A stretch of DNA of 64,000 nt from an uncultured Gammaproteobacteria bacterium (GCA_964448705.1 CAYUZS010000002.1:113577-177576), one strand, 5' to 3'. Counted from the stretch's first letter, positions 1 through 37,628 are shown. A program made the numbers and translations. The notes: generated by a model not told the origin, from the sequence alone.

Positions 1-499
1 GAGTAATTTTGAGACCGGTCCAAGTGCCGGAAAGTGTAGAATACCGATCGTAATTACCGTTTATAAAAGCCAGGGGATCATTAGCACCAAGAAGTGAAGA
101 ATATCTTTCGATATAGCCGCCACGATGACGATAAGTAAAAAAAATCGGCTCTGAACCAATAATCTGTTGATCTGTAAAAGGATTTAACATTAACTGCAAC
201 CAATCATTTTGAGGAAGTATATTGTCAGAATCAATAAAAGCAACAAAGGGAGAGTTGGCTTTTTTGAGACCAATTGCCTTACCGGCTTCGGCTGTTTTTA
301 AAGGATTTTTTAAAATACGAGCATGATATTTTTTGGCAATAAGCAGGGTGCGGTCGATAGAGCCACCGTCGCAAATATAAAGATGGACCTTATTTTTGGG
401 ATAATTTTGTAGGGATATTGATCGGAGACATTTAGTTAAAACTTTTTCTGAATTCAGAGTAGGAATAATAATATCGATGTCAAATGATACCGCCATAAC
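1..499 (-). CDS. Glycosyltransferase family 2, 5'-partial (runs off window start)
   Basis: Minus-strand translation starts MAVSFDIDIIIPTLNSEKVLTKCLRSISLQNYPKNKVHLYICDGGSIDRT and contains FIDSDN (DxD-like). This is a typical GT2 N-terminus. It is absent from the ORF track because no stop falls inside the window. It overlaps the 3' end of the rSAM gene by about 20 nt. Confidence 0.7.
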
Positions 500-2066
500 G
501 ATGTATGATACTAAAAATTCGATAATCGAGCGGCAGTTCAAAAAATTTCAATTTCCAACGGAGAGTAACCAAAAATAGGGCGATGTAATAACCGATGTTA
601 AAAGCAATTTTTCCAAAAAAATTATTTATCCGGTTAGACAACATATCATAGGTGTCCCGATCCATGATGCCAAAAATATATTGGGTCAACATCGCCGTCA
701 ACTGAGCATCATGATGGCTGATCCATTTTTGTTTTAAAGTTTCCTGAAAAGCATCCTCCGGAGACATAAGATAATTGCTCCAACCATTGAGACTTTTAGG
801 ATAATTGAGCCCTAATTTAACCGCCCGCTTGAATAAAGGGGCACCGGGATAAGGTAGGAAAATATAATAGGTATAACGATTACGGTTACATATTTTTAAG
901 AGTTTATCGATTAGAGTTAAAGTCGCTTTATATTCTTCGGCAACAAAACGATTATTTTCCTGAGGATTTTTTGACCAAGGTAAACCAACCAGAAAAGAGT
1001 ATAAAATTTTGATCTTATATTGCTGACATCTTTTAGTGAAAGTAATCAGTTCATCAACATTCATATCTTTAGAAATAAAATCCAAGGCATTTTGAGAACC
1101 GGATTCGGCACCGGTTAGAATCATAGCGCAACCAGTTTTCTGCATTAATTTCCAGGTTTTTTCCTGATAACGGGATAATTGACCGGCACGACCATTAGCG
1201 TTTCCCCATTTTAAATGAAGTTTTCTATCTATTAATCCCTGACAGATTTCAGTGACACGTCGTTCATCAACGAAAAAGTTACTGTCATAAACAGCAATAG
1301 AATCGGCCCGGTAAGTTTTTTTTAAAAATGCCCATTCATCAAGGACTTTAGAAGCGGGAACCGGCTGCCAATGACGTTTATTAACGATTTCTTCAACACA
1401 AAAAGCACAACGATGAGGACAACCGTAACTGGAAATATAAGGAATTGTCCGTTGACCGTATTCGGTATTCTGAACACATTTTTCGACATCGATCAGGTGA
1501 TAAGGCAGTGACGGTAGTTGGCGCAAATCAACCGGAGGTGCATCAGGGTTGGAGAAGATTTTTGATTTTTGTTTAAAGGTGATTCCGGGAATATCTTTTA
1601 AGGATTGACGGCGATAAAGGGTGTTAACCAAGAGGGGGAAAGTTATATCACCCGGCCCACGAACGACTATGTCCACATAATGATTTTTTACCGTTTGTTC
1701 GGGAAGAATTGAAGGATGCCAGCCTCCCCATACTATAGGAATATGAGGATATTTTTTTTTGAAAGCTTTGGCGACTTTTAGACCATCATGAATTTGAAAA
1801 CCTGTCATAGCACTGATGCCGAGACAAACAACGTCTTCACCCTGGTTAAGAATTTCTTCTAAATAGTTTTTTTGAAGATGACGGGCATAGATATTAATTT
1901 TATATTTCTGTTTGTCTAATAATCTGGATATAGCCAGGAGAGCCAGGGGGACACCATGCCAATTTCTTTCATACGGCAACGGCGAGGGAAAATATAAAAG
2001 AACTTTTTTTTTAGATTTTGGAATTGATTGGGAAGTCACGGAGTTTTTGGAGATATTTAAAGGCAT
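480..2066 (-). CDS. B12-binding domain radical SAM protein (class B rSAM)
   Basis: The N-terminal Rossmann-like segment (VVCLGISAMTGFQ...IPIVWGGWHPS) resembles a cobalamin-binding domain. The Cys cluster GCPHRCAFC is canonical Cx3Cx2C. A downstream GAESGSQNALD motif is typical of B12-rSAM enzymes. Confidence 0.8.
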   Translation of the reverse strand: MPLNISKNSVTSQSIPKSKKKVLLYFPSPLPYERNWHGVPLALLAISRLLDKQKYKINIYARHLQKNYLEEILNQGEDVVCLGISAMTGFQIHDGLKVAKAFKKKYPHIPIVWGGWHPSILPEQTVKNHYVDIVVRGPGDITFPLLVNTLYRRQSLKDIPGITFKQKSKIFSNPDAPPVDLRQLPSLPYHLIDVEKCVQNTEYGQRTIPYISSYGCPHRCAFCVEEIVNKRHWQPVPASKVLDEWAFLKKTYRADSIAVYDSNFFVDERRVTEICQGLIDRKLHLKWGNANGRAGQLSRYQEKTWKLMQKTGCAMILTGAESGSQNALDFISKDMNVDELITFTKRCQQYKIKILYSFLVGLPWSKNPQENNRFVAEEYKATLTLIDKLLKICNRNRYTYYIFLPYPGAPLFKRAVKLGLNYPKSLNGWSNYLMSPEDAFQETLKQKWISHHDAQLTAMLTQYIFGIMDRDTYDMLSNRINNFFGKIAFNIGYYIALFLVTLRWKLKFFELPLDYRIFSIIHRYGGII

Positions 2067-3543
2067 AAGTAGTTAAATAACGGATATCGTCTATATTTCT
2101 GATGGAAATGACCTTTCTGAGCAGAAACTTGGGAGTTAAGACTCCATAAAATAATTCCCGAACTAATTTTAATTGAGTTTCTTTTTTAATTGGTGATTTC
2201 ATAACTGGTTGGCGCATGTCAAAATCGTTCCAGTCATGGCTTAACAACCAATTGTTTTTTAGACATTCAGCATAGAGCGGTGTGCCGGGATAAGGAATAA
2301 CAATAGTTGCCTGCATACTGTCGGCTAATACGTCTTTAAATAATTGCCTGGCTTCATTTAAAGTATTTTTGGCATCTGATAACTTTTCCCACGGATATCC
2401 AATCATAATTGTGATATGTGGTTGTAGACCTGCTTTTTTGGCCATAACAAGGGTATTTCTGGCATCCTCCGGTTTGGTATTTTTAACCAGACGATTGAGG
2501 GTGTTTTGATTATTGGACTCCAAACCGTAAAGTATAAAACGAAAACCAGCCCGGCCCATGAGATTGTATTGTTCCTGATTTAAGGCTCCGAAACGCATAT
2601 TACAGCCGATAGTAACTTTTTTATTTAAGCCTTTTTTGATTAATTGATGACAAAGATCGTTAAGCCAGGGACCAATCGGTAAAGTGCCGGCATCATCAAA
2701 AATTTCTCTGACTCCGAGCCTGGACAAATTTTCTATTTCTTTAATGATATGTTTAACGGAAAAATTCCGAAAAGTGTTACCCGGATGAGTGGTCGTCCAG
2801 GAACAAAAAGTACATTTCCCCCACCAACAATCCCGACCGGACATAATATATGCGCCGGGCTTATATTTAAAATTAGTGTTGTTCCAACCGTAAAGCTGCC
2901 ACTTGGTCAGTTTTCTATCGATAATAGGCATTGAATCCAAAAAGTGATGTTTTAAGGCAAATTTGCCGGTATTTAGTATTTTAGAGCTTTGGTTCTTTTG
3001 TGTTTTAGAGCGATAGTAAAAACCAGGTTCGAGCTTTGATTTTTTAGAGAGATGATTGGCTAAATTAATCATCATAAAATCGTAATCTCCGCCGGTGATA
3101 ACATAATCGGCCAAGGAGTTTTCCATTGATTCTTCGGGCATAGCAGTGACATGATCACCCATGAGAGCGACTTTGGATTGGGGTAGATAACGTTTTATGT
3201 CGGCAATAATCTGCCAGTGCTTCTTGATAACCGGAGTTTTGGATTCGATAAAAATTAACTGCGGCTTATTTTTGATTAACCTATCCAACCATTGCTGATA
3301 GGAAATTTTTTCAGCAATGGCGTCATCCCAAAATACCCGATAACCCATTTTTTTTAGGGCAGAAGCACCATAGGCCGGGATAACAGGAAGAATGACATTG
3401 CCGGTGTTAGTCCACTGAAATTGACGATTTTGGGCTAAAAACGGTTGACCTTTAGAGGATATAAGTGGCGGGTAAGAAACCGAGATGGAGAATTTCGGCT
3501 TAGCCGCCGAGATAGCCTTTTTCATTGGCTTTGTGTGGTACAA
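2011..3543 (-). CDS. B12-binding domain radical SAM protein, paralog with variant Cys spacing
   Basis: Same architecture as the neighbouring rSAM gene: B12-like N-domain (KVALMGDHVTAMPE), Cys cluster DCWWGKCTFC (Cx4Cx2C) and a YGLESNNQNTL motif matching GAESGSQNAL of the neighbour. Confidence 0.7.
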   Translation of the reverse strand: MYHTKPMKKAISAAKPKFSISVSYPPLISSKGQPFLAQNRQFQWTNTGNVILPVIPAYGASALKKMGYRVFWDDAIAEKISYQQWLDRLIKNKPQLIFIESKTPVIKKHWQIIADIKRYLPQSKVALMGDHVTAMPEESMENSLADYVITGGDYDFMMINLANHLSKKSKLEPGFYYRSKTQKNQSSKILNTGKFALKHHFLDSMPIIDRKLTKWQLYGWNNTNFKYKPGAYIMSGRDCWWGKCTFCSWTTTHPGNTFRNFSVKHIIKEIENLSRLGVREIFDDAGTLPIGPWLNDLCHQLIKKGLNKKVTIGCNMRFGALNQEQYNLMGRAGFRFILYGLESNNQNTLNRLVKNTKPEDARNTLVMAKKAGLQPHITIMIGYPWEKLSDAKNTLNEARQLFKDVLADSMQATIVIPYPGTPLYAECLKNNWLLSHDWNDFDMRQPVMKSPIKKETQLKLVRELFYGVLTPKFLLRKVISIRNIDDIRYLTTYAFKYLQKLRDFPINSKI

Positions 3544-4447
3544 AATTTAAATTTTTAGATAAAAAACCAGTAATAAACATTATACCGTAGTATAGATGGG
3601 TACAGGGGATAGTAATTACAGCCAGGATAGAAATTGAGAGTTTATTTTTCTTTAACAAGAATGAAATAAAGGTGACAATTAATAATAATAGATATAAAAA
3701 AAGGAAAGGATAAAATTTGGTAAAAGGGAGAGTGAGGATATAAAGAAAAAAGATACTAGGGATAAAATAACCAATTCTTCGGCTAGTTTTGGGATAAAGT
3801 TTGGCAAAATTACCACGATGTTTGGCGTATCTGGTTATTTGTTGAAGGTGGGGAAGAATTACTTTCCGACGGTGATGATAAACAATGACTGACGGATGGT
3901 AATAAATTTTTTTGTGAAGTTGATACACAAGGTCGTGGCAAAGAATGGTATCTTCACCAGGCCAATGATGAGTATTAAAACCTTTTACTTTAACAAAATC
4001 AGATTTACGGACTATAAGATTTACCGAGGGATAGTCATCGACAAATCTGGCCGGTGAGACTAAATTACGATAGGTGCCGGCTCCCCCGCTGCCAAGGTAG
4101 CTAGACCATACTAAACCGGATGCTTGTTGAAGAACACTATCATGCGGAGGAGTTAGACAAGGACCGCAAACAGCGGCCAGAGAAGGTTTAAAAATATGAC
4201 GGGCATTTTTAAGCCAATCCGGTGAAGGATATGAATCATCATCGAGAAAAGCAAGATATTTTCCTTTGGCTTTTTTGGCACCAAGATTTCTTTTGATGGC
4301 CGGACTAACCGGTCCGGAAATTTTGTCAGTGATAACTAAAATTTCAAATGAAGTAAACGATTGTCGGGAAAGGTGTTTGATAGTTTCTCTTAGATAGGGA
4401 GTCTCGGTTCGTACAGGAATTATGATTGAAAAGAGTGGTTTTTTCAT
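3500..4447 (-). CDS. Glycosyltransferase family 2 with C-terminal transmembrane region
   Basis: FSIIIPVRTETPYLRETIKHLSRQSFTSFEILVITD and AFLDDDS are GT2 motifs. The C-terminal ~90 aa are hydrophobic. Confidence 0.75.
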   Translation of the reverse strand: MKKPLFSIIIPVRTETPYLRETIKHLSRQSFTSFEILVITDKISGPVSPAIKRNLGAKKAKGKYLAFLDDDSYPSPDWLKNARHIFKPSLAAVCGPCLTPPHDSVLQQASGLVWSSYLGSGGAGTYRNLVSPARFVDDYPSVNLIVRKSDFVKVKGFNTHHWPGEDTILCHDLVYQLHKKIYYHPSVIVYHHRRKVILPHLQQITRYAKHRGNFAKLYPKTSRRIGYFIPSIFFLYILTLPFTKFYPFLFLYLLLLIVTFISFLLKKNKLSISILAVITIPCTHLYYGIMFITGFLSKNLNFVPHKANEKGYLGG

Positions 4448-5274
4448 TAACCTAAGTTAATACGCATTTTTAAATCCTGATCATATTTCCATTGGCGTTT
4501 ATTTTTATCGTCGTAATAATGGAGAATACGCAGTCGATAAAAAATTGCCAGGGCATCGACAAGAGATTTGAAAATTGTTTTGATGCCGGTGGCGTGAGTG
4601 AGACTTGAAAAAACATATTTCAATTTAACAGGAGCTTCGTAAATTCTGGTGAAACCAAGATAATTAGCGACAGAAAGAATCTCCAAATCGAAGGCATAAT
4701 TTTTAACCAACAACCGCGGCAAAACTTTAACTAAAACTTTTCTTTTAAAAATTTTTAAGCCGGCCTGGGTATCTTTGACACGAATTCCCAATAAAAAACG
4801 GGAAATGATTTGGGCTCCAAAACTAATGATTCTCCGGTCGAGAGGATAATTTACAACCGAGGCAGGGTGGCGTTTTGAAGCGACGATTATATCAGCATCA
4901 TACCATTCCAAATGTTCAATTAAGAGTGAAATACCGTTAGGGTCTATTTCCATACCGGAATCGATAAAAGAAATATAGTCACCTTTGGTATGGGCCATGC
5001 CATATCTGACGGCATAACCTTTACCATGATTATGTTGATAGCCAATTACTTTTAAATTTTGATTTCTAATTGATTTGGCAATTTTAAATGATTGATCGAC
5101 TTTTATACCGTCAACTACAGCAATAACTTCATATTGATAACGAATCCGATCCAGGCTGTAGAGAATAGTGGAAAGATCATCGGCAATAGTTTTTTCCTGT
5201 TTATAAACTGGAACGATGACCGATATAAAATGGGAATTATTTACCATAAGATAAAGCCTGTTCATAGGCAGCAA
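4447..5274 (-). CDS. Glycosyltransferase family 2
   Basis: ISVIVPVYKQEKTIADDLSTILYSL...VIAVVDG has a GT2 N-terminal signature. Confidence 0.65.
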   Translation of the reverse strand: MLPMNRLYLMVNNSHFISVIVPVYKQEKTIADDLSTILYSLDRIRYQYEVIAVVDGIKVDQSFKIAKSIRNQNLKVIGYQHNHGKGYAVRYGMAHTKGDYISFIDSGMEIDPNGISLLIEHLEWYDADIIVASKRHPASVVNYPLDRRIISFGAQIISRFLLGIRVKDTQAGLKIFKRKVLVKVLPRLLVKNYAFDLEILSVANYLGFTRIYEAPVKLKYVFSSLTHATGIKTIFKSLVDALAIFYRLRILHYYDDKNKRQWKYDQDLKMRINLG

Positions 5275-6331
5275 GCGTTTGAATGGCAGTATATTTCCAA
5301 TTAAATATTTTAGATCGCTGTAAACCCTTGAAGGAATATTGCTTTTGAAGTTGAGAATCGGTCCATACTTTTTTCAGAGATTTTTTCAGAGCATTATGGT
5401 GGTAAGGATTAAAAAACTCACCATTGTAGTCCATAATTTCAGATAAAGAAGTTTCCTGACTATAAACAACCGGAGTGCCGCAACTCATGGCTTCGACAAC
5501 AGTTAAACCAAATCCTTCAGCATAAGACGGCTGACAATAAATAGTGGCCAAATTGTACAACAGCGGTAGGTCTTCATCCGGAACAAAGCCAAGTAATTTA
5601 AGAGCATGGGAATGCCGATACTTTGAGGCTTTTGATTGAAGCCAATGAATATCCCTAGTCCACGGATGAGAAGGTACTTTTTTAACAGCAGATGAACCGG
5701 CGATAACCAAAGGATATTTTAATTTTAAACATGCTTTAACCAAAGTGCGGATATTTTTATTCCAATTGATATCACCAACAAAAAGGACAAATTTGTCCGG
5801 TAAATCATATTTTGTTTTTATCTTTTTTAGAAGTTGATTGTCGGTAACCGGTTTAAAAACAGGTAAGGCGGCTTCGTGGGTGACATAAATTTTATCGGCC
5901 GGGTAATTTAAAATATCAGAGATAATATATTTGGAATAATGGGAAACAGTAATAATTAAAGTTGAACGGCGGGCAAGAAAGCGCTGGATCAACCATTTGA
6001 TTTCCCCTTTTATGCCGACGGGGAAATGTGATTTGAATTGTCGTGGAATTAAATCGTGGATGGTGATTATCGATGGAATTTTTTGTTGTACGGGTAAAGT
6101 TAATGAAAAAGGATCAAAATAAGGATAGTGGATCAACTGATATGAGCTAATGTCTGTTTTGGGAGTGCTGATGAGGTCTATTTTAAAATGGCGGTACTTA
6201 GGGTTTATTTTTATTTCTTTTTGAAGGTAATCGACTAAATTTCGGGTGTAATAGCCGACTCCCCTGATGGAGTTGCCGTCATTTAGAGGACTGACATCAA
6301 TGGCGACTCTGACGGTTTTACTGGAAATCAT
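5237..6331 (-). CDS. Glycosyltransferase family 4 (GT-B, group 1)
   Basis: C-terminal EGFGLTVVEAMSCGTPVV motif of retaining GT4 enzymes. Confidence 0.8.
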   Translation of the reverse strand: MISSKTVRVAIDVSPLNDGNSIRGVGYYTRNLVDYLQKEIKINPKYRHFKIDLISTPKTDISSYQLIHYPYFDPFSLTLPVQQKIPSIITIHDLIPRQFKSHFPVGIKGEIKWLIQRFLARRSTLIITVSHYSKYIISDILNYPADKIYVTHEAALPVFKPVTDNQLLKKIKTKYDLPDKFVLFVGDINWNKNIRTLVKACLKLKYPLVIAGSSAVKKVPSHPWTRDIHWLQSKASKYRHSHALKLLGFVPDEDLPLLYNLATIYCQPSYAEGFGLTVVEAMSCGTPVVYSQETSLSEIMDYNGEFFNPYHHNALKKSLKKVWTDSQLQKQYSFKGLQRSKIFNWKYTAIQTLAAYEQALSYGK

Positions 6332-7106: not shown

Positions 7107-7122
7107 AAGATTTTATTTTATG

Positions 7123-15085: not shown

Positions 15086-15109
15086 TTTCTCCTTCTTTAT
15101 TTTATACTA

Positions 15110-23198: not shown

Positions 23199-23200
23199 AT

Positions 23201-31859: not shown

Positions 31860-31886
31860 AGTTTTGTAATTAGTGAAATCAAAACA

Positions 31887-33377
31887 CTATTTGAGCATTA
31901 AAAGCAAAAGCGAATCGCCATCCGGTTTGGGATAGCTCTGAACTAAAATTACTTTTTCCTGTTCGTTTAGATTTAATTTTATACGGCTTTGATTAATCAA
32001 CATGTAGACTTCGTCGCCATGATTCCGGGCATCAACAAGTTTTGAGGGTATTTCCGATAAATCGATTCCAACACCAAACACGGTTAATCGGGGCAGACTA
32101 TCGGTGTAAATTTGCAGACCATCGGGAAGAGTACCGAAATAACCTTCTGTGCCGACGATAACGTTGGCCTGAAGAGATCTGGAAACTAAATATTCTGAAG
32201 CCGATTTGATTCCCCAACCGGAAGTCCATCCCTGAAGATATCCGGATTCAGTGGATGGTAATTTGACAGGATACGGATTGGTAGAGATACGATAGAGCCA
32301 AAATATATTAAGAGAAAGAACCAGAACTAAGATTATTATCTGAGGATAAAAAGATTTGAAATAGCGTTTAGTGTTGAGGAAGAAATAATCGATACCGACC
32401 GATAATAATAAAATTAACGGTGGCAAGGTAAATAGGATATAACGGGCAGTAAAGACTTTGGCGATGATGGCGTTAGCAAATAGAGGTAATATCCACCATA
32501 AAGATATTAATAAAAAGTGTTTATCCGAAACTGTTTTTTTCCCGGAGAGGATAAGACCAAGGACACCAAGCAATAAAAGAGGGGGAGAAAGATATTGACC
32601 GTAGAGATGAACAACATCCCAAAGATGAGGAACCAACGGATCAAAAGGATGTTTTAATATTTCAGAAAAGGACCAAACATAGTCCAGATTTCTGACGGCA
32701 ATTTGACTAAACTGAGGCCCCAGACGAAGAATATTGTAAATTAAAAAAGCTATAAAGGCGGAAAGCAGCGGATAATATATTTTTTTATAATTATTTTTTT
32801 GAAAAAATATAAAAGTGACTAGAGATAAAGAGATAAAATAAATGGCGGGAGATTTGGTGAGCCAGGCAATTCCCAAAACCACCCCTAAAATCATCGACAA
32901 ATCCAGCCGGGGATATTTAGCCAGAAGAAAGGAAAACAAAAGGGATAAGGCCCCGAAAGATGAGAGCAGATTGTCGGGAAGAGCCATACGGTCGAAGAAA
33001 AATACAAAAGGCAAAAATAAATAAATTACTCCGGAAATAACGGCTGTCCGAAAGTTAAAAAACAGTAGAGAAAAAAGATAAAGAATAGAAGTAGTGAAGG
33101 CTCCTGAGAAAACAGAAACCAATCGCCCGGCCAGTAAAGGATCACTGATAAATTTATAGGCAACCGCAGTAATCCACATAAATAAAGGCTGTTTACCATC
33201 TGAAAGAGGAACAAAACGAAGGGTATCAACATTTTTTATGAGTTGAGACCAACGAAGGTAAATAGCTTCGTCACCAAAAACGGGAATAGATTGAAGATGC
33301 TGCAACCTTAGGACAAAGTAAACTACCAATATCGGGAGTAGTGGAAGAAAATGCTTAGGCTTTAGAGGCATAGCCAC
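31887..33377 (-). CDS. GT-C membrane glycosyltransferase, ArnT/GT83-like
   Basis: PVFGDEAIYLRWSQ after TM1 resembles the DExRYAE loop motif of ArnT-type GT-C enzymes. It has 10 or more TM segments. Confidence 0.55.
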   Translation of the reverse strand: MAMPLKPKHFLPLLPILVVYFVLRLQHLQSIPVFGDEAIYLRWSQLIKNVDTLRFVPLSDGKQPLFMWITAVAYKFISDPLLAGRLVSVFSGAFTTSILYLFSLLFFNFRTAVISGVIYLFLPFVFFFDRMALPDNLLSSFGALSLLFSFLLAKYPRLDLSMILGVVLGIAWLTKSPAIYFISLSLVTFIFFQKNNYKKIYYPLLSAFIAFLIYNILRLGPQFSQIAVRNLDYVWSFSEILKHPFDPLVPHLWDVVHLYGQYLSPPLLLLGVLGLILSGKKTVSDKHFLLISLWWILPLFANAIIAKVFTARYILFTLPPLILLLSVGIDYFFLNTKRYFKSFYPQIIILVLVLSLNIFWLYRISTNPYPVKLPSTESGYLQGWTSGWGIKSASEYLVSRSLQANVIVGTEGYFGTLPDGLQIYTDSLPRLTVFGVGIDLSEIPSKLVDARNHGDEVYMLINQSRIKLNLNEQEKVILVQSYPKPDGDSLLLLMLK

Positions 33378-34125
33378 CCTTGAGGTCGTTAATTTTTATC
33401 CGTAATATTTCTTTGATCATCTGAATTGATTCTTTTTTATAGCGGTCGTCGCCATTACCACCTTTAGTGTTGCTGGTATCTTCGTTGCGCCAATCTACGA
33501 CAATTTCTTTAATTTTATAACCCCATTTTTGGGCCATAAATAACAATTCAACATCAAAAGAAGAGACACGCCATCCTTTCTTTTCAGATTTATCCTGCAA
33601 AAATTGAAGATGTGGAAACAATGACTTGGCAACATCAGTTTTGAACATTTTAAAACCGCATTGAGTATCCCTAATATTCGGCAGCAGAACAAATCGTCGG
33701 AAGGCTAAAAATACCGGACCACCTATTTTTCTTAATAAAGAATAACCTTCACGGGATAAACCACGGGAACCGATGACGACATCATAGTCGGGAAAATGAG
33801 GTAAAAGCTTTAAAACTTCTTTAAGAGGGGTGGACTGATCCATATCGGTAAATAAAACCAGAGGATATTGAGCTTGTTGAATACCTCCCCAAACGGCTGA
33901 AGGTTTACCACCATGAGGAAGGTCGAGAACCTTAAAGCCTGGATGTTTTTTGGCGTAATCAAGAATAAATTTTAGAGAACCATCGGTGGAGGCATCGTTA
34001 CAGAGTAAAACTTCCCATTTAAAATCCCTAGTCTTTAAAAAGTCGTTAACTTCGTCTAAAACTCCCCGCTGAAGATTGTTTTCTTCGTTGTAACAGGGAA
34101 TTACGATAGATAGGCTGTGATTCAT
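33355..34125 (-). CDS. GT2 polyprenyl-phosphate sugar synthase (DPM1/ArnC/GtrB-like)
   Basis: LSIVIPCYNEENNLQRGVL...VLLCNDASTDGS plus VIGSRG. It is soluble and short (256 aa), as in Dol-P-Man / Und-P-sugar synthases. Confidence 0.7.
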   Translation of the reverse strand: MNHSLSIVIPCYNEENNLQRGVLDEVNDFLKTRDFKWEVLLCNDASTDGSLKFILDYAKKHPGFKVLDLPHGGKPSAVWGGIQQAQYPLVLFTDMDQSTPLKEVLKLLPHFPDYDVVIGSRGLSREGYSLLRKIGGPVFLAFRRFVLLPNIRDTQCGFKMFKTDVAKSLFPHLQFLQDKSEKKGWRVSSFDVELLFMAQKWGYKIKEIVVDWRNEDTSNTKGGNGDDRYKKESIQMIKEILRIKINDLKGGYASKA

Positions 34126-34154
34126 AGTTATATGATAGCATTTAACTCTTTTGC

Positions 34155-35486
34155 TTATCTCCTAACAAGTGAGTAAATTCGGTGATGAAATACTACCTGA
34201 CTATCTTTTGGCAAGGTATCGTTGGTATAGAGAGTATAGAGATGACCATTGGTAAAAATTTTTGAAGGCCGACGATAAAAAGAAAGTAAATAGTCGAAAC
34301 CAAAATCCATACCTAAGCCAGTTTCGTAAGATAAATAAAAAGGTTGATCCTGAGTTTGGGTAATGAGATATCTGATGACAGTTTTTTTGTCGTTTAAAGT
34401 GACTTGGCCGGAAGATGACGAATATTGTTTAAACAAAACAAAGGCAGTTAGAAATATAGAAACAATAATGATTAAAATAGGATTTTTTAAAAACTTAACT
34501 AATATAAGAGCCAGATAGACGGGAATTAATGAAGTAACCAAAGCGTAATAATATTCAGAGATTGCTCCGTGATAAAAAGATAAAATAATCAGCGGAAGAA
34601 GCACCCAAACAAAGGATAACCAGCGATTTAACTTTGATGACATCAAAAAAGGAGAAACCAGAAGAATAAGTAAAAATAAACTTCTTTCGATGAGAGCGGG
34701 CATAATATTCAACAAAGATAAACTACGCCAAAAACTTCTTAGCCATAAAAACGGGGAATAAATTTGGCCGGAAGAATTAGTGCCGGAGATCAATTCTAAA
34801 ATTTTTTGAGTATTCAAAAAATTATGCCTTAAATCAAAAACAACCAGAGGCAAAAAAGGAATTATAAAAGCAACAATGCCCAAAAGAATTTCTTTGAGTG
34901 AAATTTTTTGCCTGCCGATGACAAAAGAAAAAATAATGATAGGAACCAAAGAAATTGGGACAAGATGAATGTTGGAAATTAATCCGGCGAAAAACATAGC
35001 CCAAATAAAACTAAATTTATGATTGATAGCCTGATAGCAAATATAAAAAGAGATAATGCTGATAAGCGGGGCATACATGACACTCCAACAAGTTTTACCC
35101 AAGATGATGGTTAAAAATAGTGATGCCAGAAAACCGGTTAAAGGATTAAAAATTTTGGAGATAAGTATGAAAGCAGTAACGGAAGTGATGACATTAATTA
35201 AAATTAAAGCGTATTGACCGGCGACAGGATCACCTTTGGTGAAAATATAAAAAGGCAAAAGATAATAATAGTGATACGGACCGACAAAAAAACTATTCTG
35301 ATTGCTGACCTGAGGACCGATTAAAAGAGGCTTATGACGGTCGATCATAGAAACAACTTTGGCAGCATCATCCGCCTGATCCCATTCGAAAGAATAGCTA
35401 GTTGAAACTCTTTGAAAAGAAAGCAAAAAGGAAAAGAGACCGATGATTAAAATTAAAACAAGTCCAAATGACTTATTGTTGGGCAT
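34155..35486 (-). CDS. GT-C-like polytopic membrane protein (tandem paralog a)
   Basis: EWDQADDAAKVVSMIDRHKPLLIGPQVSNQNSFFVGPYHYYYLLPFYIF aligns with the neighbour's LGDQGRDVVIVSDFLKKGDLFFIGPQTSIGNMYLGPFYYYLIVAP. Confidence 0.5.
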   Translation of the reverse strand: MPNNKSFGLVLILIIGLFSFLLSFQRVSTSYSFEWDQADDAAKVVSMIDRHKPLLIGPQVSNQNSFFVGPYHYYYLLPFYIFTKGDPVAGQYALILINVITSVTAFILISKIFNPLTGFLASLFLTIILGKTCWSVMYAPLISIISFYICYQAINHKFSFIWAMFFAGLISNIHLVPISLVPIIIFSFVIGRQKISLKEILLGIVAFIIPFLPLVVFDLRHNFLNTQKILELISGTNSSGQIYSPFLWLRSFWRSLSLLNIMPALIERSLFLLILLVSPFLMSSKLNRWLSFVWVLLPLIILSFYHGAISEYYYALVTSLIPVYLALILVKFLKNPILIIIVSIFLTAFVLFKQYSSSSGQVTLNDKKTVIRYLITQTQDQPFYLSYETGLGMDFGFDYLLSFYRRPSKIFTNGHLYTLYTNDTLPKDSQVVFHHRIYSLVRR

Positions 35487-36906
35487 TTAAATTATGAATT
35501 AACCGGAAAACCTTGATGCCATTAATTTCCCATTGGGAGTCGATTTTGGCCCAACCAAAGGCGGCAACATTCCATTCCGGGTTATTAATCGGATTGCAGT
35601 CAATTTGAAAAGGTTCGCAGACAACAAAAAGCTGGTCTGTAACCTGTGAGTCGAGAGTATATAAAGGTGATTGCCATTGATTAAAAAAATATCGATACGG
35701 CGGATCGTAGTTCATTTTTGCCAGCAGAGCAAAATTGAAAGGCTGTTGATTTGAAGCAGCTAAAATTGAGCGATCAATTTCGATGGTAGTAGACAACTGT
35801 TTGGGAGGAGACCAGCGAAAAGGATTTTCCAGGAAAGAAAAAACTGTCAACGAGATTAATAAAGGAATAGCCAGAAGACGAGGCAAACGGCTAAGAAGAA
35901 AGCCAATAAGCATAAAAACTACCGGGAAAAGAAAGGCAAAATAATGGTCGTAGATGTGCTGTTTGTAGAGTCCAAGCCCGACTAATCCGGATAGATACCA
36001 AAGTAAACACACAAGATAGGGATAAAAATGTTTTTTAGAACCTTGTCGAAAAAATAAATAAATAAGACCGACAACAAAGACGATCGATATTATGAGGCCG
36101 AAAGTAACATCTTTACCGGCTAAAAGCCGGGTGTTGACCTGATTAAACAATTCAGGAATAACAGGCAGTGATTTGTAAGCTTTCAAATTAACAGTGGTTT
36201 CTCTTTGAGTAAAAAAGGTAGTTAGAGCTTTAAAATTTTGGCCCTGATGTTTAAGGTCAAATAAAATTTGAGGGGTTAAGGAAAGAATAAAAACCAGAAC
36301 GGCCAATAGCGTTTCTTTAAGATGAAGCCGGGGTTTGTTTTTGAGCCAAATAATAAATGCCGGAGGCAATAAAAGCAGAGCTAAATAATGGGAATTTAAA
36401 CACATGATAAAAGCTAAAGAAGCATAAAGATATTTTTTCTGAGTAACAAAATAAATGAACATAAGTGAAAAAAGAGGCATAACATTGGGATTCCAGGAAA
36501 AATTCGAGTATTTAATAACTACCGGAGAAATAGAATATAGAAAAGCGGATAAATAGGCAGTTTTAGTGTTAAACCAGCGGCGGGAAATATAAAAAATTAA
36601 GGCCACGGTTAAGACGCCCAGGAGTGCCACAAAAACGGCCGGACCGATGGGATTAAAAAAAGCTAAAAGAAGCGAAGGGGCGACAATGAGGTAATAATAA
36701 AAAGGACCGAGATACATATTACCAATACTGGTTTGAGGACCGATAAAAAAGAGATCACCTTTTTTTAGAAAATCACTGACAATAACCACATCCCGTCCTT
36801 GGTCACCTAAAAATTCCATATAATCGGAAACTTTAAAAAGACGGAGAAAAGCTGCCAATACTAAAATTAAAACCAGCAACCAATATTTTGATAAAAATCT
36901 TTTCAT
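35473..36906 (-). CDS. GT-C-like polytopic membrane protein (tandem paralog b)
   Basis: See the tandem-paralog alignment for 34155-35486. It has 12 or more TM. The acidic loop DQGRD follows TM1. Confidence 0.5.
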   Translation of the reverse strand: MKRFLSKYWLLVLILVLAAFLRLFKVSDYMEFLGDQGRDVVIVSDFLKKGDLFFIGPQTSIGNMYLGPFYYYLIVAPSLLLAFFNPIGPAVFVALLGVLTVALIFYISRRWFNTKTAYLSAFLYSISPVVIKYSNFSWNPNVMPLFSLMFIYFVTQKKYLYASLAFIMCLNSHYLALLLLPPAFIIWLKNKPRLHLKETLLAVLVFILSLTPQILFDLKHQGQNFKALTTFFTQRETTVNLKAYKSLPVIPELFNQVNTRLLAGKDVTFGLIISIVFVVGLIYLFFRQGSKKHFYPYLVCLLWYLSGLVGLGLYKQHIYDHYFAFLFPVVFMLIGFLLSRLPRLLAIPLLISLTVFSFLENPFRWSPPKQLSTTIEIDRSILAASNQQPFNFALLAKMNYDPPYRYFFNQWQSPLYTLDSQVTDQLFVVCEPFQIDCNPINNPEWNVAAFGWAKIDSQWEINGIKVFRLIHNLNAQQ

Positions 36907-37628
36907 TTATGAAAGGTCATGTTTAACCAAAGACGGAAAAGATCAGCGAAACTTTTAATAATGACATTTATATGACGACCGGTGGCGGTGCCGGCATTTC
37001 GGGGATAATGGTGAACACCGACTTCGGTAATTTTGAAGCCGGCTTTTTTAGCTTTAATTAAGAATTCACTGCTGATAAATGCTCCCCTCTCCGATTCTAA
37101 CTTGGGAATGGTGTCGATGACCTTTTTATTTACTAACTTGAAGCCGCAATCGATATCCTTAACTTTTAAACCAAAAAGGACAAAAACGATAATTTCCCAT
37201 ATTTTGGAAGTTAAAATAACAACTTTAGGAACCTGACGTTGGAGATAATAGCCGATAACCAAATCGGCATAAGTGCGTTCCTGAGTATCGATAAATTTGT
37301 CTATTTCAGAAAAATCAAACTGACCATCTGAATCAGTAAAAGCGATCCATTGATATTGGCAGTTATAGAAACCGCTTTTAAAAGCAGCACCATATCCACG
37401 ATTGGGATGATGGGTGACAATTTTGGTTTGTCGGGGATAATCCTGATGAATTTCAGCTAAAATCTCGGCCGTTCTGTCTTTGGAACCGTCATCAATGAAT
37501 ATTATTTCCCATTTTTCGGCTGTTTTTTTAATAACCGGCAATGCCTTTTGAAAAGTGGTTTTAATGTTGGCTTCTTCGTTATAACAAGGGAAAAATACTG
37601 AAAGTTCTTTTAGTCGATGTTGACTCAT
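36903..37628 (-). CDS. GT2 polyprenyl-phosphate sugar synthase (DPM1/ArnC/GtrB-like)
   Basis: LSVFFPCYNEEANIKTTFQKALPVIKKTAEKWEIIFIDDGSKDRT. It is 241 aa and soluble. Confidence 0.7.
   Translation of the reverse strand: MSQHRLKELSVFFPCYNEEANIKTTFQKALPVIKKTAEKWEIIFIDDGSKDRTAEILAEIHQDYPRQTKIVTHHPNRGYGAAFKSGFYNCQYQWIAFTDSDGQFDFSEIDKFIDTQERTYADLVIGYYLQRQVPKVVILTSKIWEIIVFVLFGLKVKDIDCGFKLVNKKVIDTIPKLESERGAFISSEFLIKAKKAGFKITEVGVHHYPRNAGTATGRHINVIIKSFADLFRLWLNMTFHK

What the first reader, a model, noticed from the sequence alone, without database searches (positions are those of the whole stretch)
1..37628. 37-kb contiguous glycosylation super-locus combining GT2/GT4 enzymes, lipid-P-sugar synthases, a flippase, about 11 GT-C membrane transferases and B12-radical-SAM enzymes
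Almost every gene from the window start to 37.6 kb belongs to glycan assembly. There are 11 GT2 genes (one partial), 2 GT4 genes, 2 DPM1/ArnC-like polyprenyl-P-sugar synthases, a Wzx-like flippase and 6 GT39/PMT-like GT-C paralogs. An ArnT-like GT-C, a tandem pair of GT-C-like proteins, two family-B giant membrane proteins and two B12-binding radical-SAM enzymes are also present. No nucleotide-sugar biosynthesis genes, ABC exporters or Wzy/Wzz-type chain-length machinery are visible, so a capsule or O-antigen locus is a poor fit. Lipid-phosphate-sugar synthases together with many GT-C enzymes argue for extracytoplasmic, lipid-carrier-dependent glycosylation of proteins or wall polymers. That chemistry is PMT/ArnT-like, but it is multiplied here far beyond described bacterial systems such as actinobacterial Pmt/Ppm1 and Arn. 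This is my best candidate for an undescribed system: a multi-transferase surface O-glycosylation or glycan-decoration factory.
Basis: partly seen in the sequence, partly recalled or inferred. Interest (0 to 1): 0.8.

Follow-up and report, generated by a model that had tools for sequence, protein, structure and literature searches.

The report
Giant envelope-glycan factory in CPR bacterium
A tiny-genome, uncultivated bacterium (Candidatus Shapirobacteria) spends about 5% of its DNA on one conserved block of some 38 sugar-handling genes, including 14-15 membrane enzymes that add sugars outside the cell. This points to an unusually elaborate, so far undescribed surface sugar coat built by known types of chemistry.

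Summary
All 31 ORFs in 1-37,628 are glycan-assembly genes:
- 11 GT2 (three DPM1/GtrB/ArnC-like, one cut by the window edge)
- 2 GT4
- one Wzx/MOP flippase
- two B12-radical-SAM enzymes
- 14 GT-C-type membrane proteins, not about 11

The window comes from a Candidatus Shapirobacteria (Microgenomates, CPR) genome. The locus continues about 8.4 kb past the window start. That stretch holds 2 GT4, a methyltransferase, a SPASM and a third B12 radical-SAM enzyme, a TPR-tailed GT-C and an NDP-sugar epimerase. The total is about 46 kb, so "no nucleotide-sugar genes" is an edge artefact.

Gene order is conserved ortholog by ortholog in 29 of 33 long Shapirobacteria/Collierbacteria loci, around a variable GT-C cassette (15,110-21,553).

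Best reading: a two-stage, lipid-carrier-based envelope-glycan assembly line with an unusually elaborate extracytoplasmic stage. The logic is known from streptococcal/lactococcal wall polysaccharides, mycobacterial LAM/arabinogalactan and ER N-glycan assembly. I found no description of this configuration, scale and lineage. The acceptor (wall polymer, lipid or protein) and the sugars remain unknown.

New variant of a known kind; interest 0.6.

The parts
1..496 (-). GT2 glycosyltransferase, N-terminal part only. The full gene is 334 aa and continues beyond the window start.
   Evidence: The translation of the left edge starts MAVSFDIDIIIPTLNSEKV. The full-length copy in L003 11571-12575 carries Pfam Glycos_transf_2.
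480..2066 (-). rSAM1: class-B (B12-binding) radical-SAM enzyme with a CX3CX2C motif at C216/C220/C223
   Evidence: Pfam B12-binding E 6.1e-13 and Radical_SAM. Best NCBIfam hit is HpnJ at 120.5 bits against a cut-off of 577.6. Cys motif. Orthologs are 68-79% identical.
2011..3543 (-). rSAM2: second B12-binding radical-SAM enzyme, with a variant CX4CX2C motif (C239/C244/C247)
   Evidence: Pfam Radical_SAM E 8.4e-13; B12-binding is below the cut-off. HpnJ 131 bits against 577.6. Cys positions.
3500..4447 (-). GT2a: GT2 with about 3 C-terminal hydrophobic helices
   Evidence: Pfam Glycos_transf_2 and Glyco_trans_2_3. Hydropathy. Only weak generic GT2 hits in the PDB.
4447..5274 (-). GT2b: DPM1-like GT2 subfamily; candidate polyprenyl-P-sugar synthase or primer
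   Evidence: Pfam GT2 E 5.6e-20. Paralog of GT2i and GT2j. NCBIfam hits PgfS and PpgS are far below their cut-offs.
5237..6331 (-). GT4a: GT-B fold glycosyltransferase
   Evidence: Pfam Glycos_transf_1 E 9.5e-29 and Glyco_transf_4.
6318..7106 (-). GT2c: member of the GT2c/f/h subfamily
   Evidence: Pfam GT2 E 1.2e-18. Paralog of GT2f and GT2h at E about 1e-30.
7123..8721 (-). A1: family-A GT-C glycosyltransferase with a 'PDE' motif after TM1
   Evidence: Pfam PMT 26.7 bits (cut-off 22.7). BLAST paralogy. Motif.
8684..10264 (-). A2: family-A GT-C
   Evidence: 34.9% identical to A1, E 8e-77. Weak PMT_2 hit. 'WDE' motif.
10257..11882 (-). A3: family-A GT-C with no Pfam hit of its own
   Evidence: BLAST to A1 at E 3.5e-51. 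'WDE' motif.
11866..13479 (-). B1: family-B GT-C (PTPS_related/YfhO-like) with a 'QDD' motif after TM1
   Evidence: Pfam PTPS_related 29.1 bits (cut-off 26.4). Of 23 family members, 16 hit PTPS_related, 6 hit YfhO and 4 hit PMT_2. hhalign to A4 gives 68%.
13466..15085 (-). A4: family-A GT-C; the member that was modelled
15110..16492 (+). U460: family-A-related multi-pass membrane protein that lacks the acidic motif after TM1. Its catalytic status is uncertain. First gene of the variable cassette.
   Evidence: No Pfam hit for it or for 13 orthologs. hhalign to A1 gives 97.2%, E 3e-11, aligned from A1 residue 91. No conserved D or E before residue 163.
16489..18153 (+). A5: family-A GT-C (variable cassette)
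   Evidence: Pfam PMT 28 bits and PMT_2 27.8 bits. 'FDE' motif.
18155..19375 (+). U406: N-terminal membrane part of a split GT87/DUF2029-like GT-C (variable cassette)
   Evidence: Homologs 37-52% identical over the full length carry PF09594 (GT87) and are named 'glycosyltransferase 87 family' or DUF2029. H21, P22 and D23 are conserved.
19326..19952 (+). U208: C-terminal part of the same GT87-like protein, encoded separately here
   Evidence: Many U406 homologs are 590-640 aa, equal to U406 plus U208. The two are separate adjacent ORFs in the window's clade.
19931..21553 (+). A6: family-A GT-C (variable cassette)
   Evidence: Pfam PMT_2 40 bits. 'GDE' motif.
21529..22326 (-). GT2d: member of the GT2d/e/g subfamily
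   Evidence: Pfam GT2 E 1.7e-27. Paralogy.
22323..23198 (-). GT2e: generic nucleotide-sugar GT2
   Evidence: Pfam GT2 E 1.4e-25. Best PDB relatives are chondroitin synthase and ppGalNAc-transferases, not ArnC or GtrB.
23201..24394 (-). GT4b
   Evidence: Pfam Glycos_transf_1 E 2.3e-27.
24360..25142 (-). GT2f
   Evidence: Pfam GT2 E 2.6e-9. Paralog of GT2c and GT2h.
25130..26062 (-). GT2g
   Evidence: Pfam GT2 E 2.4e-18.
26059..27015 (-). GT2h
   Evidence: Pfam GT2 E 2.3e-20.
27012..28667 (-). U551: GT-C-fold enzyme of a family with no Pfam model. It overlaps the Wzx gene and has an AglB-like C-terminal globular domain.
28646..30100 (-). Wzx-type MOP-family flippase
   Evidence: Pfam Polysacc_synt_3 E 6.5e-47 and Polysacc_synt E 1.8e-23.
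30072..31859 (-). B2: family-B GT-C with an 'HDD' motif after TM1
   Evidence: 37.5% identical to B1, E 1.4e-105. PTPS_related 21 bits, below the cut-off. Family scan.
31887..33377 (-). C496: PMT_2/ArnT-like GT-C, paired with GT2i
   Evidence: Pfam PMT_2 47.5 bits. 'GDE' motif. hhalign to A4 gives 90%.
33355..34125 (-). GT2i: DPM1/GtrB-like candidate polyprenyl-P-sugar synthase with no TM helices
   Evidence: PDB best hits: GtrB sll0501 E 5.4e-12, DPMS 3.8e-7, ArnC 4.8e-7.
34155..35486 (-). U443: GT-C, divergent paralog of C477
   Evidence: BLAST to C477 at E 6.4e-17. hhalign 97.6% over 381 columns. 'WDQ' motif.
35473..36906 (-). C477: PMT_2-type GT-C
   Evidence: Pfam PMT_2 33.3 bits. hhalign to A4 gives 95.6%.
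36903..37628 (-). GT2j: DPM1/ArnC-like candidate polyprenyl-P-sugar synthase. First gene of the long minus-strand block and the right-hand end of the locus.
   Evidence: PDB best hits: ArnC E 8.9e-17 (residues 6-217 of 241), GtrB 8.1e-15, DPMS 4.6e-8. Best NCBIfam hit is ArnC at 73.7 bits, below the cut-off.
41669..42700 (-). LytR-CpsA-Psr (LCP) family protein. Possibly associated as a candidate ligase of a lipid-linked glycopolymer to peptidoglycan.
   Evidence: Pfam LytR_cpsA_psr E 2e-20. The association with the locus is an inference only.
49497..51221 (-). A7: seventh family-A GT-C copy, outside the locus
   Evidence: BLAST to A1 at E 2.3e-31. Weak PMT_2 hit. 'SDE' motif.

Best explanation
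The finding is the larger part (37.6 of about 46 kb; 31 of about 38 genes) of a vertically inherited envelope-glycan assembly locus. The host is a Candidatus Shapirobacteria bacterium (Microgenomates, CPR/Patescibacteria).

Proposed mechanism:
1. Inferred. At the cytoplasmic face, soluble GT2 and GT4 enzymes (8 + 2 in the window, 1 + 2 beyond it) build an oligosaccharide on a polyprenyl-phosphate carrier.
   - No phosphoglycosyl-transferase is present in the locus. Priming is therefore probably done by one of the three DPM1/GtrB/ArnC-like GT2s making a polyprenyl-monophosphate sugar, as WpsA does in Lactococcus.
   - B12-radical-SAM, SPASM radical-SAM, SAM-methyltransferase and epimerase enzymes tailor the sugars.
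2. Inferred. The Wzx/MOP flippase moves the lipid-linked glycan outward, and possibly the polyprenyl-P-monosaccharides too, since no GtrA-type flippase is present.
3. The fold is shown; the activity is inferred. Fourteen GT-C-fold membrane enzymes (15 with the TPR-tailed one outside the window) act outside the membrane.
   - Most are ancient, separately conserved ortholog groups with an acidic motif in the first outer loop.
   - They would use polyprenyl-P-sugars to elongate and branch the glycan, possibly polymerise it, and finally transfer it.
   - The Pfam-less GT-C U551 overlaps wzx and carries an OST-like C-terminal domain. It is the best candidate for the step that takes the flipped lipid-linked glycan.
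4. Acceptor unknown. My ranking is a wall-linked or lipid-anchored polymer (about 0.45), surface proteins (about 0.3), or both.

A cassette of GT-C genes between GT2d and A4 (15,110-21,553 here) differs between species and would diversify the glycan.
For: GT-C fold:
- AF2 models are confident: pLDDT 87.9 and 90.0.
- The other members are linked by BLAST or hhalign, by Pfam scans of the whole family, or by GT87-annotated homologs.
- A D[E/D/Q] motif follows TM1 in 12 of the 14, and U406 has a conserved Asp (HPD) in the same loop.

Lipid-P-sugar synthases: GT2j and GT2i have ArnC, GtrB and DPMS as best solved relatives over the whole catalytic domain. GT2e instead hits generic GT2s. GT2j-C477/U443 and GT2i-C496 are adjacent GT-A/GT-C pairs, as in known three-component systems (PMC8035078).

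One functional unit:
- The same gene order with 1:1 orthologs appears in 29 of 33 loci of at least 15 kb from Shapirobacteria (45-72% identity) and Collierbacteria (about 28-46%). Paralogs within the window are only 24-35% identical.
- Both flanks are conserved too.
- Genes overlap or lie no more than 29 bp apart.

Other support:
- A rare Wzx-X-U551 fusion exists (P0396).
- Precedents for this logic are PMC8035078, PMC10821137 and PMC12041528.
- An LCP ligase and a sortase are encoded nearby.
Against: - Nothing biochemical is known for any of these proteins or any close relative.
- All NCBIfam hits of the GT2s and radical-SAM enzymes are far below the family cut-offs. Donor sugars, linkages and radical-SAM chemistry are therefore guesses.
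- No initiating phosphoglycosyl-transferase, GtrA-type flippase, Wzy, chain-length regulator or nucleotide-sugar synthase was found in the window or the extension. Only 64 + 10 kb of the genome could be examined.
- U460 lacks the catalytic acidic motif and may be non-catalytic.
- Only two of the 14 GT-Cs were modelled.
- Conserved synteny does not prove a single product. The locus could hold several independent pathways.
- The Wzx-U551 fusion is a single sequence and could be a gene-calling artefact.
Confidence: 0.6

Rival explanations
1. Protein O-glycosylation factory. The DPM1-like GT2s make polyprenyl-P-sugars. The GT-C enzymes attach and extend sugars directly on Ser/Thr of secreted, membrane-anchored or sortase-anchored proteins. 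This would resemble actinobacterial Pmt/Ppm1, streptococcal PgfS/PgfM1 and GtrB/PgtC2, or TMTC enzymes.
For: - Three family-A members pass the Pfam PMT cut-off marginally.
- Family B is YfhO/PTPS_related-like, as are the protein-glycosylating PgfM1 and PgtC2 (PMC12041528).
- GT2b, GT2i and GT2j hit the PgfS model weakly.
- A TPR-tailed GT-C (TMTC-like architecture) lies in the extension.
- A4's and U551's top structural neighbours include the oligosaccharyltransferases AglB, STT3 and PglB.
- A sortase substrate (LIPATG) is encoded right next to the locus.
- A membrane-anchored cyclophilin has an S/T-rich linker.
Against: - Thirteen cytoplasmic GTs plus a Wzx flippase and sugar-tailoring enzymes are far more than direct protein monoglycosylation needs.
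- Family A is no closer to PMT than to ArnT, ALG12 or AglB, and it has no MIR domains.
- No WWDXG-type OST motif was noticed in U551.
- No S/T-rich target set could be established from this window.
Confidence: 0.2
2. A co-located collection of independent systems rather than one pathway. It would comprise two or three classic GT-A/GT-C 'three-component' decoration modules (GT2j-C477/U443, GT2i-C496), a separate Wzx-dependent oligosaccharide pathway, an array of family-A enzymes for another polymer, and an unrelated radical-SAM module.
For: - GT-A/GT-C pairs look like self-contained modules known from Bacillus, Listeria and Lactococcus (PMC8035078).
- The central cassette is gained, lost and inverted independently of the flanks. 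L033 has no cassette.
- Extra PMT_2 genes are inserted in some relatives.
Against: - The order of the blocks relative to each other is conserved across two phylum-level candidate lineages.
- Overlapping reading frames imply co-transcription in three long units.
- Only one flippase is present for all the modules.
Confidence: 0.15
3. An ordinary Wzx/Wzy-type capsule, EPS or O-antigen-like locus. The unassigned membrane proteins would be the polymerase, ligase and chain-length machinery, and the GT-C label would be incidental.
For: - Wzx plus many GT2 and GT4 genes is the hallmark of such loci.
- An epimerase lies in the extension and an ABC-2 permease lies just outside the window.
- One family-B relative gave a weak Wzy_C hit.
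Against: - The best Wzy candidate by position (U551) is GT-C-fold.
- No Wzy_C, EpsG or Wzz hit was found for any window protein, even at E up to 5 for the six ORFs without a Pfam family.
- No initiating phosphoglycosyl-transferase is present.
- Fourteen GT-C genes is far outside the composition of such loci.
Confidence: 0.05

Closest known systems
Multi-component transmembrane glycosylation systems of Gram-positive bacteria (CsbB/GtcA/YfhO, GtlA/GtlB, GacI/J/K/L, CsdAB/CD/EF; review PMC8035078)
   Same: A GT-A (GT2) enzyme makes a C55-P-sugar, a flippase (GtrA-type or Wzx-type) moves it, and a multi-pass GT-C enzyme of PMT_2, YfhO or 'no Pfam' type transfers the sugar outside the membrane. The GT-A and GT-C genes are adjacent, as for GT2j-C477 and GT2i-C496.
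   Different: Known systems have one GT-C per module and up to about three or four modules per genome, scattered. Here 14-15 GT-C genes sit in one conserved locus with only three candidate lipid-P-sugar synthases and one Wzx. There is no GtrA. The small GT2s lack the C-terminal TM helices, and no GacJ/WpsB-like partner was seen.
Lactococcal/streptococcal rhamnose-rich wall polysaccharide pathways (cwps: WpsA/B, WpsC-F, Wzx WpsG, GT-C WpsH/WpsJ; PMC10821137)
   Same: A repeat unit is built on polyprenyl-monophosphate by a DPM1-like GT2 plus cytoplasmic GTs, then flipped by a Wzx. GT-C-fold enzymes then polymerise and/or transfer it outside the cell. The locus has a conserved part and a variable part.
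   Different: There is no rhamnan backbone machinery (RmlABCD, RgpA-F) and no TagO in the window. Far more GT-C genes are present, along with three B12-radical-SAM enzymes. The lineage is CPR rather than Firmicutes.
Corynebacterineae lipomannan/LAM and arabinogalactan assembly (Ppm1, PimE/GT87, MptA/B/C, EmbA/B/C, AftA-D). The comparison rests on my own knowledge plus fold matches.
   Same: A cytoplasmic GT4 stage is followed by flipping, then extensive extracytoplasmic elongation and branching by a dozen or more GT-C enzymes fed by polyprenyl-P-sugars from a DPM1-like GT2. A GT87-like member is present (U406/U208).
Eukaryotic ER / archaeal N-glycan lipid-linked-oligosaccharide pathway (ALG1/2/11 GT4, DPM1/ALG5 GT2, RFT1, ALG3/9/12/6/8/10 GT-C, STT3/AglB)
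   Different: There is no evidence of en bloc transfer to Asn, and no WWDXG motif was noticed. Identities are only 10-15%, so this is an analogy of logic, not membership.
Bacterial protein O-glycosylation by GT-C enzymes (actinobacterial Pmt/Ppm1; S. mutans PgfS/PgfM1/PgfE/PgfM2; GtrB/PgtC2; PMC12041528)
   Same: A GT2 lipid-P-sugar synthase works with PMT- or YfhO-type GT-C enzymes. An epimerase sits in the operon. Sortase substrates are encoded next to the genes.
   Different: Those systems add one or a few sugars with one or two GT-Cs. Here there are also 13 cytoplasmic GTs, a Wzx and radical-SAM enzymes.
Arn pathway (ArnC/ArnT)
   Same: GT2j's best solved relative is ArnC (E 8.9e-17). C496 and C477 are PMT_2/ArnT-like.
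   Different: ArnA, ArnB, ArnD, ArnE and ArnF are absent, and a monoderm-like CPR cell has no lipid A. Scores are far below the ArnC equivalog cut-off (73.7 against 529 bits).

Membership tests
GT-C glycosyltransferase superfamily (fold level) | Multi-pass membrane core whose fold matches solved GT-C enzymes | tested here: met
GT-C glycosyltransferase superfamily (fold level) | Conserved acidic residue(s) (DxD, DE, DD or a modified form) in the first extracytoplasmic loop | tested here: met
   DE in A1-A7 and C496, DQ in C477 and U443, DD in B1 and B2, HPD in U406, and H43-D44 in U551. These are invariant in orthologs where checked. The feature is not met for U460, which has no conserved acid before residue 163.
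GT-C glycosyltransferase superfamily (fold level) | Uses a polyprenyl-phosphate-linked sugar donor on the extracytoplasmic face | not testable with these tools
   This is inferred only from the fold and from the co-encoded DPM1-like GT2s.
GT39 / PMT protein O-mannosyltransferases | Significant match to the PMT family model | tested here: inconclusive
   PF02366 is just above its cut-off for A1 (26.7), A4 (25.8) and A5 (28.0) against 22.7. It is absent for A2, A3 and A6. PMT_2 (PF13231) is a broad ArnT/PMT-like model.
GT39 / PMT protein O-mannosyltransferases | Closer to PMTs than to other GT-C families; MIR-domain luminal loop in eukaryotic PMTs | tested here: not met
GT39 / PMT protein O-mannosyltransferases | Transfers mannose from polyprenyl-P-Man to Ser/Thr of proteins | not testable with these tools
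Three-/multi-component transmembrane glycosylation system (GT-A + flippase + GT-C) | GT2 polyprenyl-phosphate sugar synthase (GtrB/CsbB/ArnC/DPM1-like) | tested here: inconclusive
   Best PDB relatives of GT2j and GT2i are ArnC, GtrB and DPMS across the catalytic domain. However, NCBIfam scores are far below the cut-offs, and the C-terminal TM helices typical of GtrB and ArnC are absent.
Three-/multi-component transmembrane glycosylation system (GT-A + flippase + GT-C) | Adjacent GT-A and GT-C genes | tested here: met
   GT2j (36903-37628) is followed by C477 and U443. GT2i (33355-34125) is followed by C496. The reading frames overlap.
Three-/multi-component transmembrane glycosylation system (GT-A + flippase + GT-C) | Dedicated flippase (GtrA-type or Wzx-type) | tested here: met
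   A Wzx-type flippase is present. No GtrA-type gene exists, and the locus has no room for one.
Wzx/Wzy-dependent polysaccharide locus | Wzy polymerase, initiating phosphoglycosyl-transferase (PF02397 or PF00953) and chain-length regulator | tested here: not met
   None was found among all window ORFs of at least 120 aa that were scanned, or among the L003 extension genes. The positional Wzy candidate U551 is GT-C-fold. The rest of the genome was not examined.
ABC-transporter-dependent wall glycopolymer (WTA/rhamnan-like) pathway | TagGH/RgpCD-type ABC-2 exporter and TagO-type primer in or near the locus | tested here: inconclusive
   An ABC2_membrane gene starts about 9.4 kb beyond the window start, after a CofD/YvcK-family gene. 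Its ATPase and its link to the locus could not be read. No TagO was seen.
Class B (cobalamin-dependent) radical-SAM enzymes | N-terminal B12-binding domain plus a radical-SAM core with a Cys triad | tested here: met
   The Pfam domains are present. The Cys triad is CX3CX2C in rSAM1 and CX4CX2C in rSAM2.
Named class-B subfamilies (HpnJ, BchE, PhpK, GenK-like and others) | Score above the NCBIfam equivalog cut-off | tested here: not met
   The best hit is HpnJ at 120.5 and 131.1 bits against a cut-off of 577.6. All other hits are lower.
GT87 (PimE-like polyprenyl-P-mannose-dependent mannosyltransferases) | Match to PF09594 | tested here: inconclusive
   U406 itself has no hit. About 25 homologs at 26-55% identity carry PF09594 in the precomputed annotation. 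A conserved Asp (D23) lies in the first loop.

The most novel reading that the evidence does not exclude
The locus encodes a bacterial counterpart of the ER/archaeal lipid-linked-oligosaccharide pathway with a full extracytoplasmic maturation stage.
- A polyprenyl-linked oligosaccharide is made in the cytoplasm, tailored by cobalamin-dependent radical-SAM chemistry, and flipped by Wzx.
- A series of dedicated GT-C enzymes using polyprenyl-P-sugars then remodels it stepwise outside the membrane.
- An OST-like GT-C (U551 or a family-A member) finally transfers it en bloc to surface proteins or to the wall.
- The result would be a hyper-branched, species-variable glycan coat that mediates host or phage recognition in episymbiotic CPR bacteria.

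U551 would then define a new, widespread family of bacterial oligosaccharyl- or glycan-transferases, with about 1,300 representative clusters and no Pfam model.
Probability: 0.15. Interest if true: 0.85.

Novelty: new variant of a known kind. Interest (0 to 1): 0.6.

Why it matters
CPR/Patescibacteria make up a large share of bacterial diversity. All cultivated members live attached to other microbes, yet their envelope chemistry is essentially unknown.

- **Likely importance to the organism.** A locus of about 46 kb takes roughly 5% of a genome of about 1 Mb. It is kept gene for gene across Shapirobacteria and Collierbacteria, with a species-variable cassette in the middle. This suggests the surface glycan is both indispensable and under diversifying selection, as expected for a host- or phage-recognition structure.
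- **Value for glycobiology.** The locus is the densest array of GT-C genes I am aware of. It offers a natural set of 14-15 diverged GT-C enzymes with presumably distinct specificities.
- **New targets.** It contains a sizeable GT-C family without any Pfam model, and cobalamin-dependent radical-SAM enzymes embedded in a glycan pathway. All of these can be taken into heterologous biochemistry.

Tried and rejected
- **U551 as the missing Wzy polymerase.** Suggested by its position next to wzx and its lack of a Pfam hit. Rejected because its model is GT-C-fold.
- **Invertible (phase-variable) cassette at 15,110-21,553.** No flanking inverted repeats beyond chance-level AT-rich matches were found. 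The orientation differences between genomes look like fixed rearrangements.
- **Sequence-profile searches of family A4 and U551 against PDB sequences.** They found nothing meaningful. Only fold comparison worked.
- **Relaxed Pfam scan (E up to 5) of the six unassigned ORFs.** Nothing was found. A Pfam scan of 14 U460 family members also found nothing.
- **N-terminal secreted domain fused to U551 homologs in other organisms.** I hoped it would reveal the acceptor type. It gave only a weak DUF3863 / PDB 3lm3 hit, which is uninformative.
- **Naming the source assembly.** The exact proteins are in NCBI on a 186,675-bp contig, but no accession or name was returned. The taxon was inferred from orthologs.
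- **RiPP or natural-product reading of the radical-SAM genes.** Rejected as the main reading. There is no intergenic space for a precursor peptide, and the genes are embedded among GTs.
- **tRNA and Rfam scans of the window.** Nothing was found.
- **Search for Ser/Thr-rich disordered regions in neighbouring secreted proteins as glyco-targets.** The sample was too small. Only one modest linker was found.
- **Literature searches for CPR, Shapirobacteria or Patescibacteria GT-C or glycosylation loci.** No relevant paper was found.

Full report
**1. What is in the sequence**

The region 1-37,628 holds 30 complete ORFs plus one ORF cut by the window edge. They form three blocks:
- minus strand, 1-15,085
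- plus strand, 15,110-21,553
- minus strand, 21,529-37,628

Neighbouring ORFs overlap or lie no more than 29 bp apart, so there is no room for further genes. GC is 34-39% throughout, with no compositional island.

Pfam and translation of the left edge give the following:
- 10 complete GT2 plus a partial GT2 (1-496)
- 2 GT4
- a Wzx/MOP flippase (Polysacc_synt_3, E 6.5e-47)
- two B12-binding radical-SAM proteins
- seven proteins with PMT or PMT_2 hits
- two with PTPS_related/YfhO hits
- six multi-pass membrane proteins with no hit

All-vs-all BLAST groups the membrane proteins:
- Family A has six members, here called A1-A6, at 24-35% identity. A seventh copy, A7, sits at 49,497-51,221.
- Family B has two members, B1 and B2, at 37.5% identity.
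- The 443-aa and 477-aa proteins form a pair.

The GT2s fall into three subfamilies of three:
- DPM1-like: 4447-5274, 33355-34125, 36903-37628
- GT2c/f/h
- GT2d/e/g

GT2a and the partial GT2 stand outside these groups.

**2. Are the membrane proteins really GT-C enzymes?**

*A4 (13466-15085).* I modelled it with an alignment of 34 orthologs (pLDDT 87.9, pTM 0.87).
- Foldseek against the PDB returns only GT-C-fold proteins in the top 36: STT3, PglB, AglB, Pmt4, ArnT, ALG12, ALG9, DPY19, Emb, AftD and PIG-U. E-values go down to 2e-7.

*U551 (27012-28667), which has no Pfam match.* The model has pLDDT 90.0 and pTM 0.90.
- It is therefore a GT-C, not a Wzy.

*The remaining unassigned proteins.*
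- U443 links to its PMT_2 neighbour (hhalign 97.6%).
- U460 links to family A (hhalign 97.2%, E 3e-11).
- U406 has many homologs at 37-52% identity that carry PF09594 (GT87/DUF2029). These are 590-640 aa long, which equals U406 plus the next ORF, U208. The pair is thus a split GT87-like enzyme.
- Of 23 family-B members, 16 hit PTPS_related, 6 hit YfhO and 4 hit PMT_2.

*The acidic motif.* A D[E/D/Q] motif follows the first TM helix in 12 of the 14, and U406 has a conserved HPD there. It is invariant in orthologs where I checked. U460 is the exception. It has no conserved acid before residue 163 and no Pfam hit in 14 family members. It may be a non-catalytic GT-C-like subunit. PIG-U and GAB1 are a precedent for such proteins, and both appear among the fold hits.

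The tally is 14 GT-C-type proteins in the window locus.

**3. The small GT2s**

- GT2j (241 aa) has ArnC (E 8.9e-17, residues 6-217), GtrB (8.1e-15) and DPMS (4.6e-8) as best solved relatives.
- GT2i has GtrB (5.4e-12), DPMS and ArnC.
- A member of another subfamily, GT2e, hits chondroitin synthase and ppGalNAc-transferases instead.

The assignment as polyprenyl-P-sugar synthases is reasonable but not proven. NCBIfam scores are far below every equivalog cut-off. The proteins also lack the C-terminal TM helices of GtrB and ArnC. In that respect they resemble WpsA and GacI, which need a small membrane partner (PMC10821137). No such partner is encoded here.

**4. Origin and extent**

*Taxon.*
- Orthologs of three locus proteins are 50-70% identical. 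Where they are named, they come from Candidatus Shapirobacteria, Microgenomates or Patescibacteria MAGs.
- The lineage is Patescibacteria group > Microgenomates group > Candidatus Shapironibacteriota.
- The flanking genes fit a monoderm-type CPR cell: FtsEX, LCP, SecA, sortase and aminoacyl-tRNA synthetases.

*The locus runs past the window start.* On the source contig (L003), the following genes come after the partial GT2:
- a GT4
- a SAM-methyltransferase
- another GT4
- a SPASM radical-SAM enzyme
- a 583-aa protein with at least 7 TM helices, an 'SDDY' motif and C-terminal TPR repeats. hhalign links it to family A at 90%, and the architecture is TMTC-like.
- a third B12-radical-SAM enzyme
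- a short NAD-dependent sugar epimerase/dehydratase

A CofD/YvcK-family gene and an ABC-2 permease follow these. The locus is therefore about 46 kb with about 38 genes.

**5. Conservation**

A scan of one genome per GTDB species with the A4 alignment returned 55 loci. My ORF calling plus BLAST against the window proteins shows the same gene order in 29 of the 33 loci of at least 15 kb:

[B2-Wzx-U551-GT2h-GT2g-GT2f-GT4b-GT2e-GT2d] - variable cassette - [A4-B1-A3-A2-A1-GT2c-GT4a-GT2b-GT2a-rSAM2-rSAM1...]

- Orthologs are 45-72% identical in Shapirobacteria and about 28-46% in Collierbacteria.
- For A1-A5, the median identity to the best-matching window paralog is 43-52%, against 29-34% for the second best. 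The duplications predate the split of these lineages, and each copy has been kept.
- The left end (GT2j-PMT_2-PMT_2-GT2i-PMT_2-...-B2) is conserved.
- The extension beyond the window start is conserved too.
- The radical-SAM pair is the most conserved part, at 68-79%.
- The cassette between GT2d and A4 varies. It is absent in L033, it contains other GT-C-like genes in L004 and L018, and it is partly inverted in L022 and L025. In the window it is the plus-strand block 15,110-21,553.
- Relatives sit on scaffolds of 0.95-1.0 Mb. I infer from this that the locus is about 5% of the genome.

**6. Mechanism**

Shown: gene content, GT-C fold, conserved acidic loop motif, synteny.

Inferred from established knowledge of these families:
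- Cytoplasmic GT2 and GT4 enzymes build a lipid-linked oligosaccharide.
- Wzx flips it.
- DPM1-like GT2s supply polyprenyl-P-monosaccharides.
- GT-C enzymes elongate, branch, polymerise and transfer the glycan outside the membrane.
- Radical-SAM, methyltransferase and epimerase enzymes tailor the sugars.

The lack of a phosphoglycosyl-transferase suggests priming on polyprenyl-monophosphate, as in the lactococcal PSP pathway (PMC10821137). U551's overlap with wzx, its OST-like C-terminal domain, and a single Wzx-X-U551 fusion protein (P0396) make it the candidate for the step that handles the flipped glycan.

The acceptor is open:
- An LCP ligase 4 kb away fits a peptidoglycan-linked polymer.
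- YfhO-like and TPR-tailed GT-Cs, a sortase substrate next door and streptococcal precedents (PMC12041528) keep protein glycosylation alive.
- A lipoglycan in the style of mycobacterial LM/LAM is equally possible.

**7. Comparison with known systems and novelty**

The parts and the logic are known. The closest systems are:
- multi-component transmembrane glycosylation systems (PMC8035078)
- lactococcal and streptococcal wall polysaccharides
- Corynebacterineae LAM and arabinogalactan
- the ER/archaeal LLO pathway

What differs:
- 14-15 GT-C genes in one conserved operon-like locus
- a single Wzx and only three candidate lipid-P-sugar synthases
- three cobalamin radical-SAM enzymes
- a Pfam-less GT-C family with 1,288 representative clusters at 50% identity
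- a reduced-genome CPR host

Family A should not be filed as GT39/PMT, because it is equidistant from OST, ALG, PMT and ArnT.

Eight literature searches found no description of this locus, or of GT-C expansions in CPR. The library lacks most subscription journals, so this is absence in what could be searched.

Verdict: a real, non-chance feature; a new variant of a known kind; interest 0.6.

Noticed in passing
window 37727-38359 (+); sortase at 58445-59251 (+): The DUF11-domain protein next to the locus ends in LIPATG, a hydrophobic stretch and RKLARGY, which is a sortase sorting signal. A sortase gene lies 20 kb away. The protein is a possible surface-anchored glyco-target, but this is speculative.
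   Followed up: partly
window 38366-39556 (-), downstream of ftsX/ftsE at 39563-41124: This secreted protein has a long coiled coil and a C-terminal Peptidase_C39_2-like domain, and is encoded right after ftsEX. The arrangement resembles FtsEX-controlled wall hydrolases (PcsB/EnvC type). A second C39_2-like protein is at 45209-45958.
   Followed up: no
window 44594-45205 (-): A membrane-anchored cyclophilin carries a Ser/Thr/Pro-rich linker (TSDIAMVSPEPSSSITASPSANTSE). This recalls the O-glycosylated disordered region of the PPIase PrsA in streptococci (PMC12041528).
   Followed up: no
window 49497-51221 (-): A seventh family-A GT-C paralog lies outside the locus, between a DHH phosphoesterase and SecA. 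It has an N-terminal extension of about 60 aa.
   Followed up: partly
window 18155-19375 and 19326-19952 (+): The GT87-like protein is split into two overlapping ORFs here and in the closest relatives. In many other Shapirobacteria and Woesebacteria it is a single 590-640-aa protein.
   Followed up: yes
homologs of window 27012-28667 (P0367-P0450; P0396): About 40 of the top 150 U551-family representatives carry an extra N-terminal secreted domain of 430-600 aa. Its conserved start is FVTIVNPVRG.EFW, and it gives only a weak DUF3863 hit. One protein (P0396, 1,639 aa) fuses Wzx, this domain and U551.
   Followed up: partly
window 2011-3543 (-): rSAM2 has CX4CX2C (C239/C244/C247) in place of the canonical CX3CX2C radical-SAM motif that rSAM1 carries.
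   Followed up: no
loci L009, L012, L013, L018-L020, L025, L049, L059 and others: Many database records with clearly Shapirobacteria-type loci are titled 'uncultured Gammaproteobacteria', 'Pseudomonadales', 'Candidatus Methanoperedens', 'Pacearchaeota' or 'Bacteroidales'. These are mislabelled or misbinned contigs.
   Followed up: no
window 15085-15110 and 21529-21553: The divergent start codons of A4 and U460 are only 24 bp apart, so any promoters must lie inside coding sequence. The convergent 3' ends of A6 and GT2d overlap by 25 nt. No flanking inverted repeats were found.
   Followed up: partly
L003 16492-18243 (beyond the window start): This 583-aa protein has at least 7 TM helices, an 'SDDY' motif after TM1 and C-terminal TPR repeats. 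It looks like a TMTC-like GT-C with TPR. hhalign gives 90% to the family-A core.
   Followed up: partly
window 47518-48000 (-): A 160-aa ORF lies antisense within the BipA/TypA gene (46006-47850) and is probably spurious. The whole 64-kb window has no tRNA or Rfam match.
   Followed up: no
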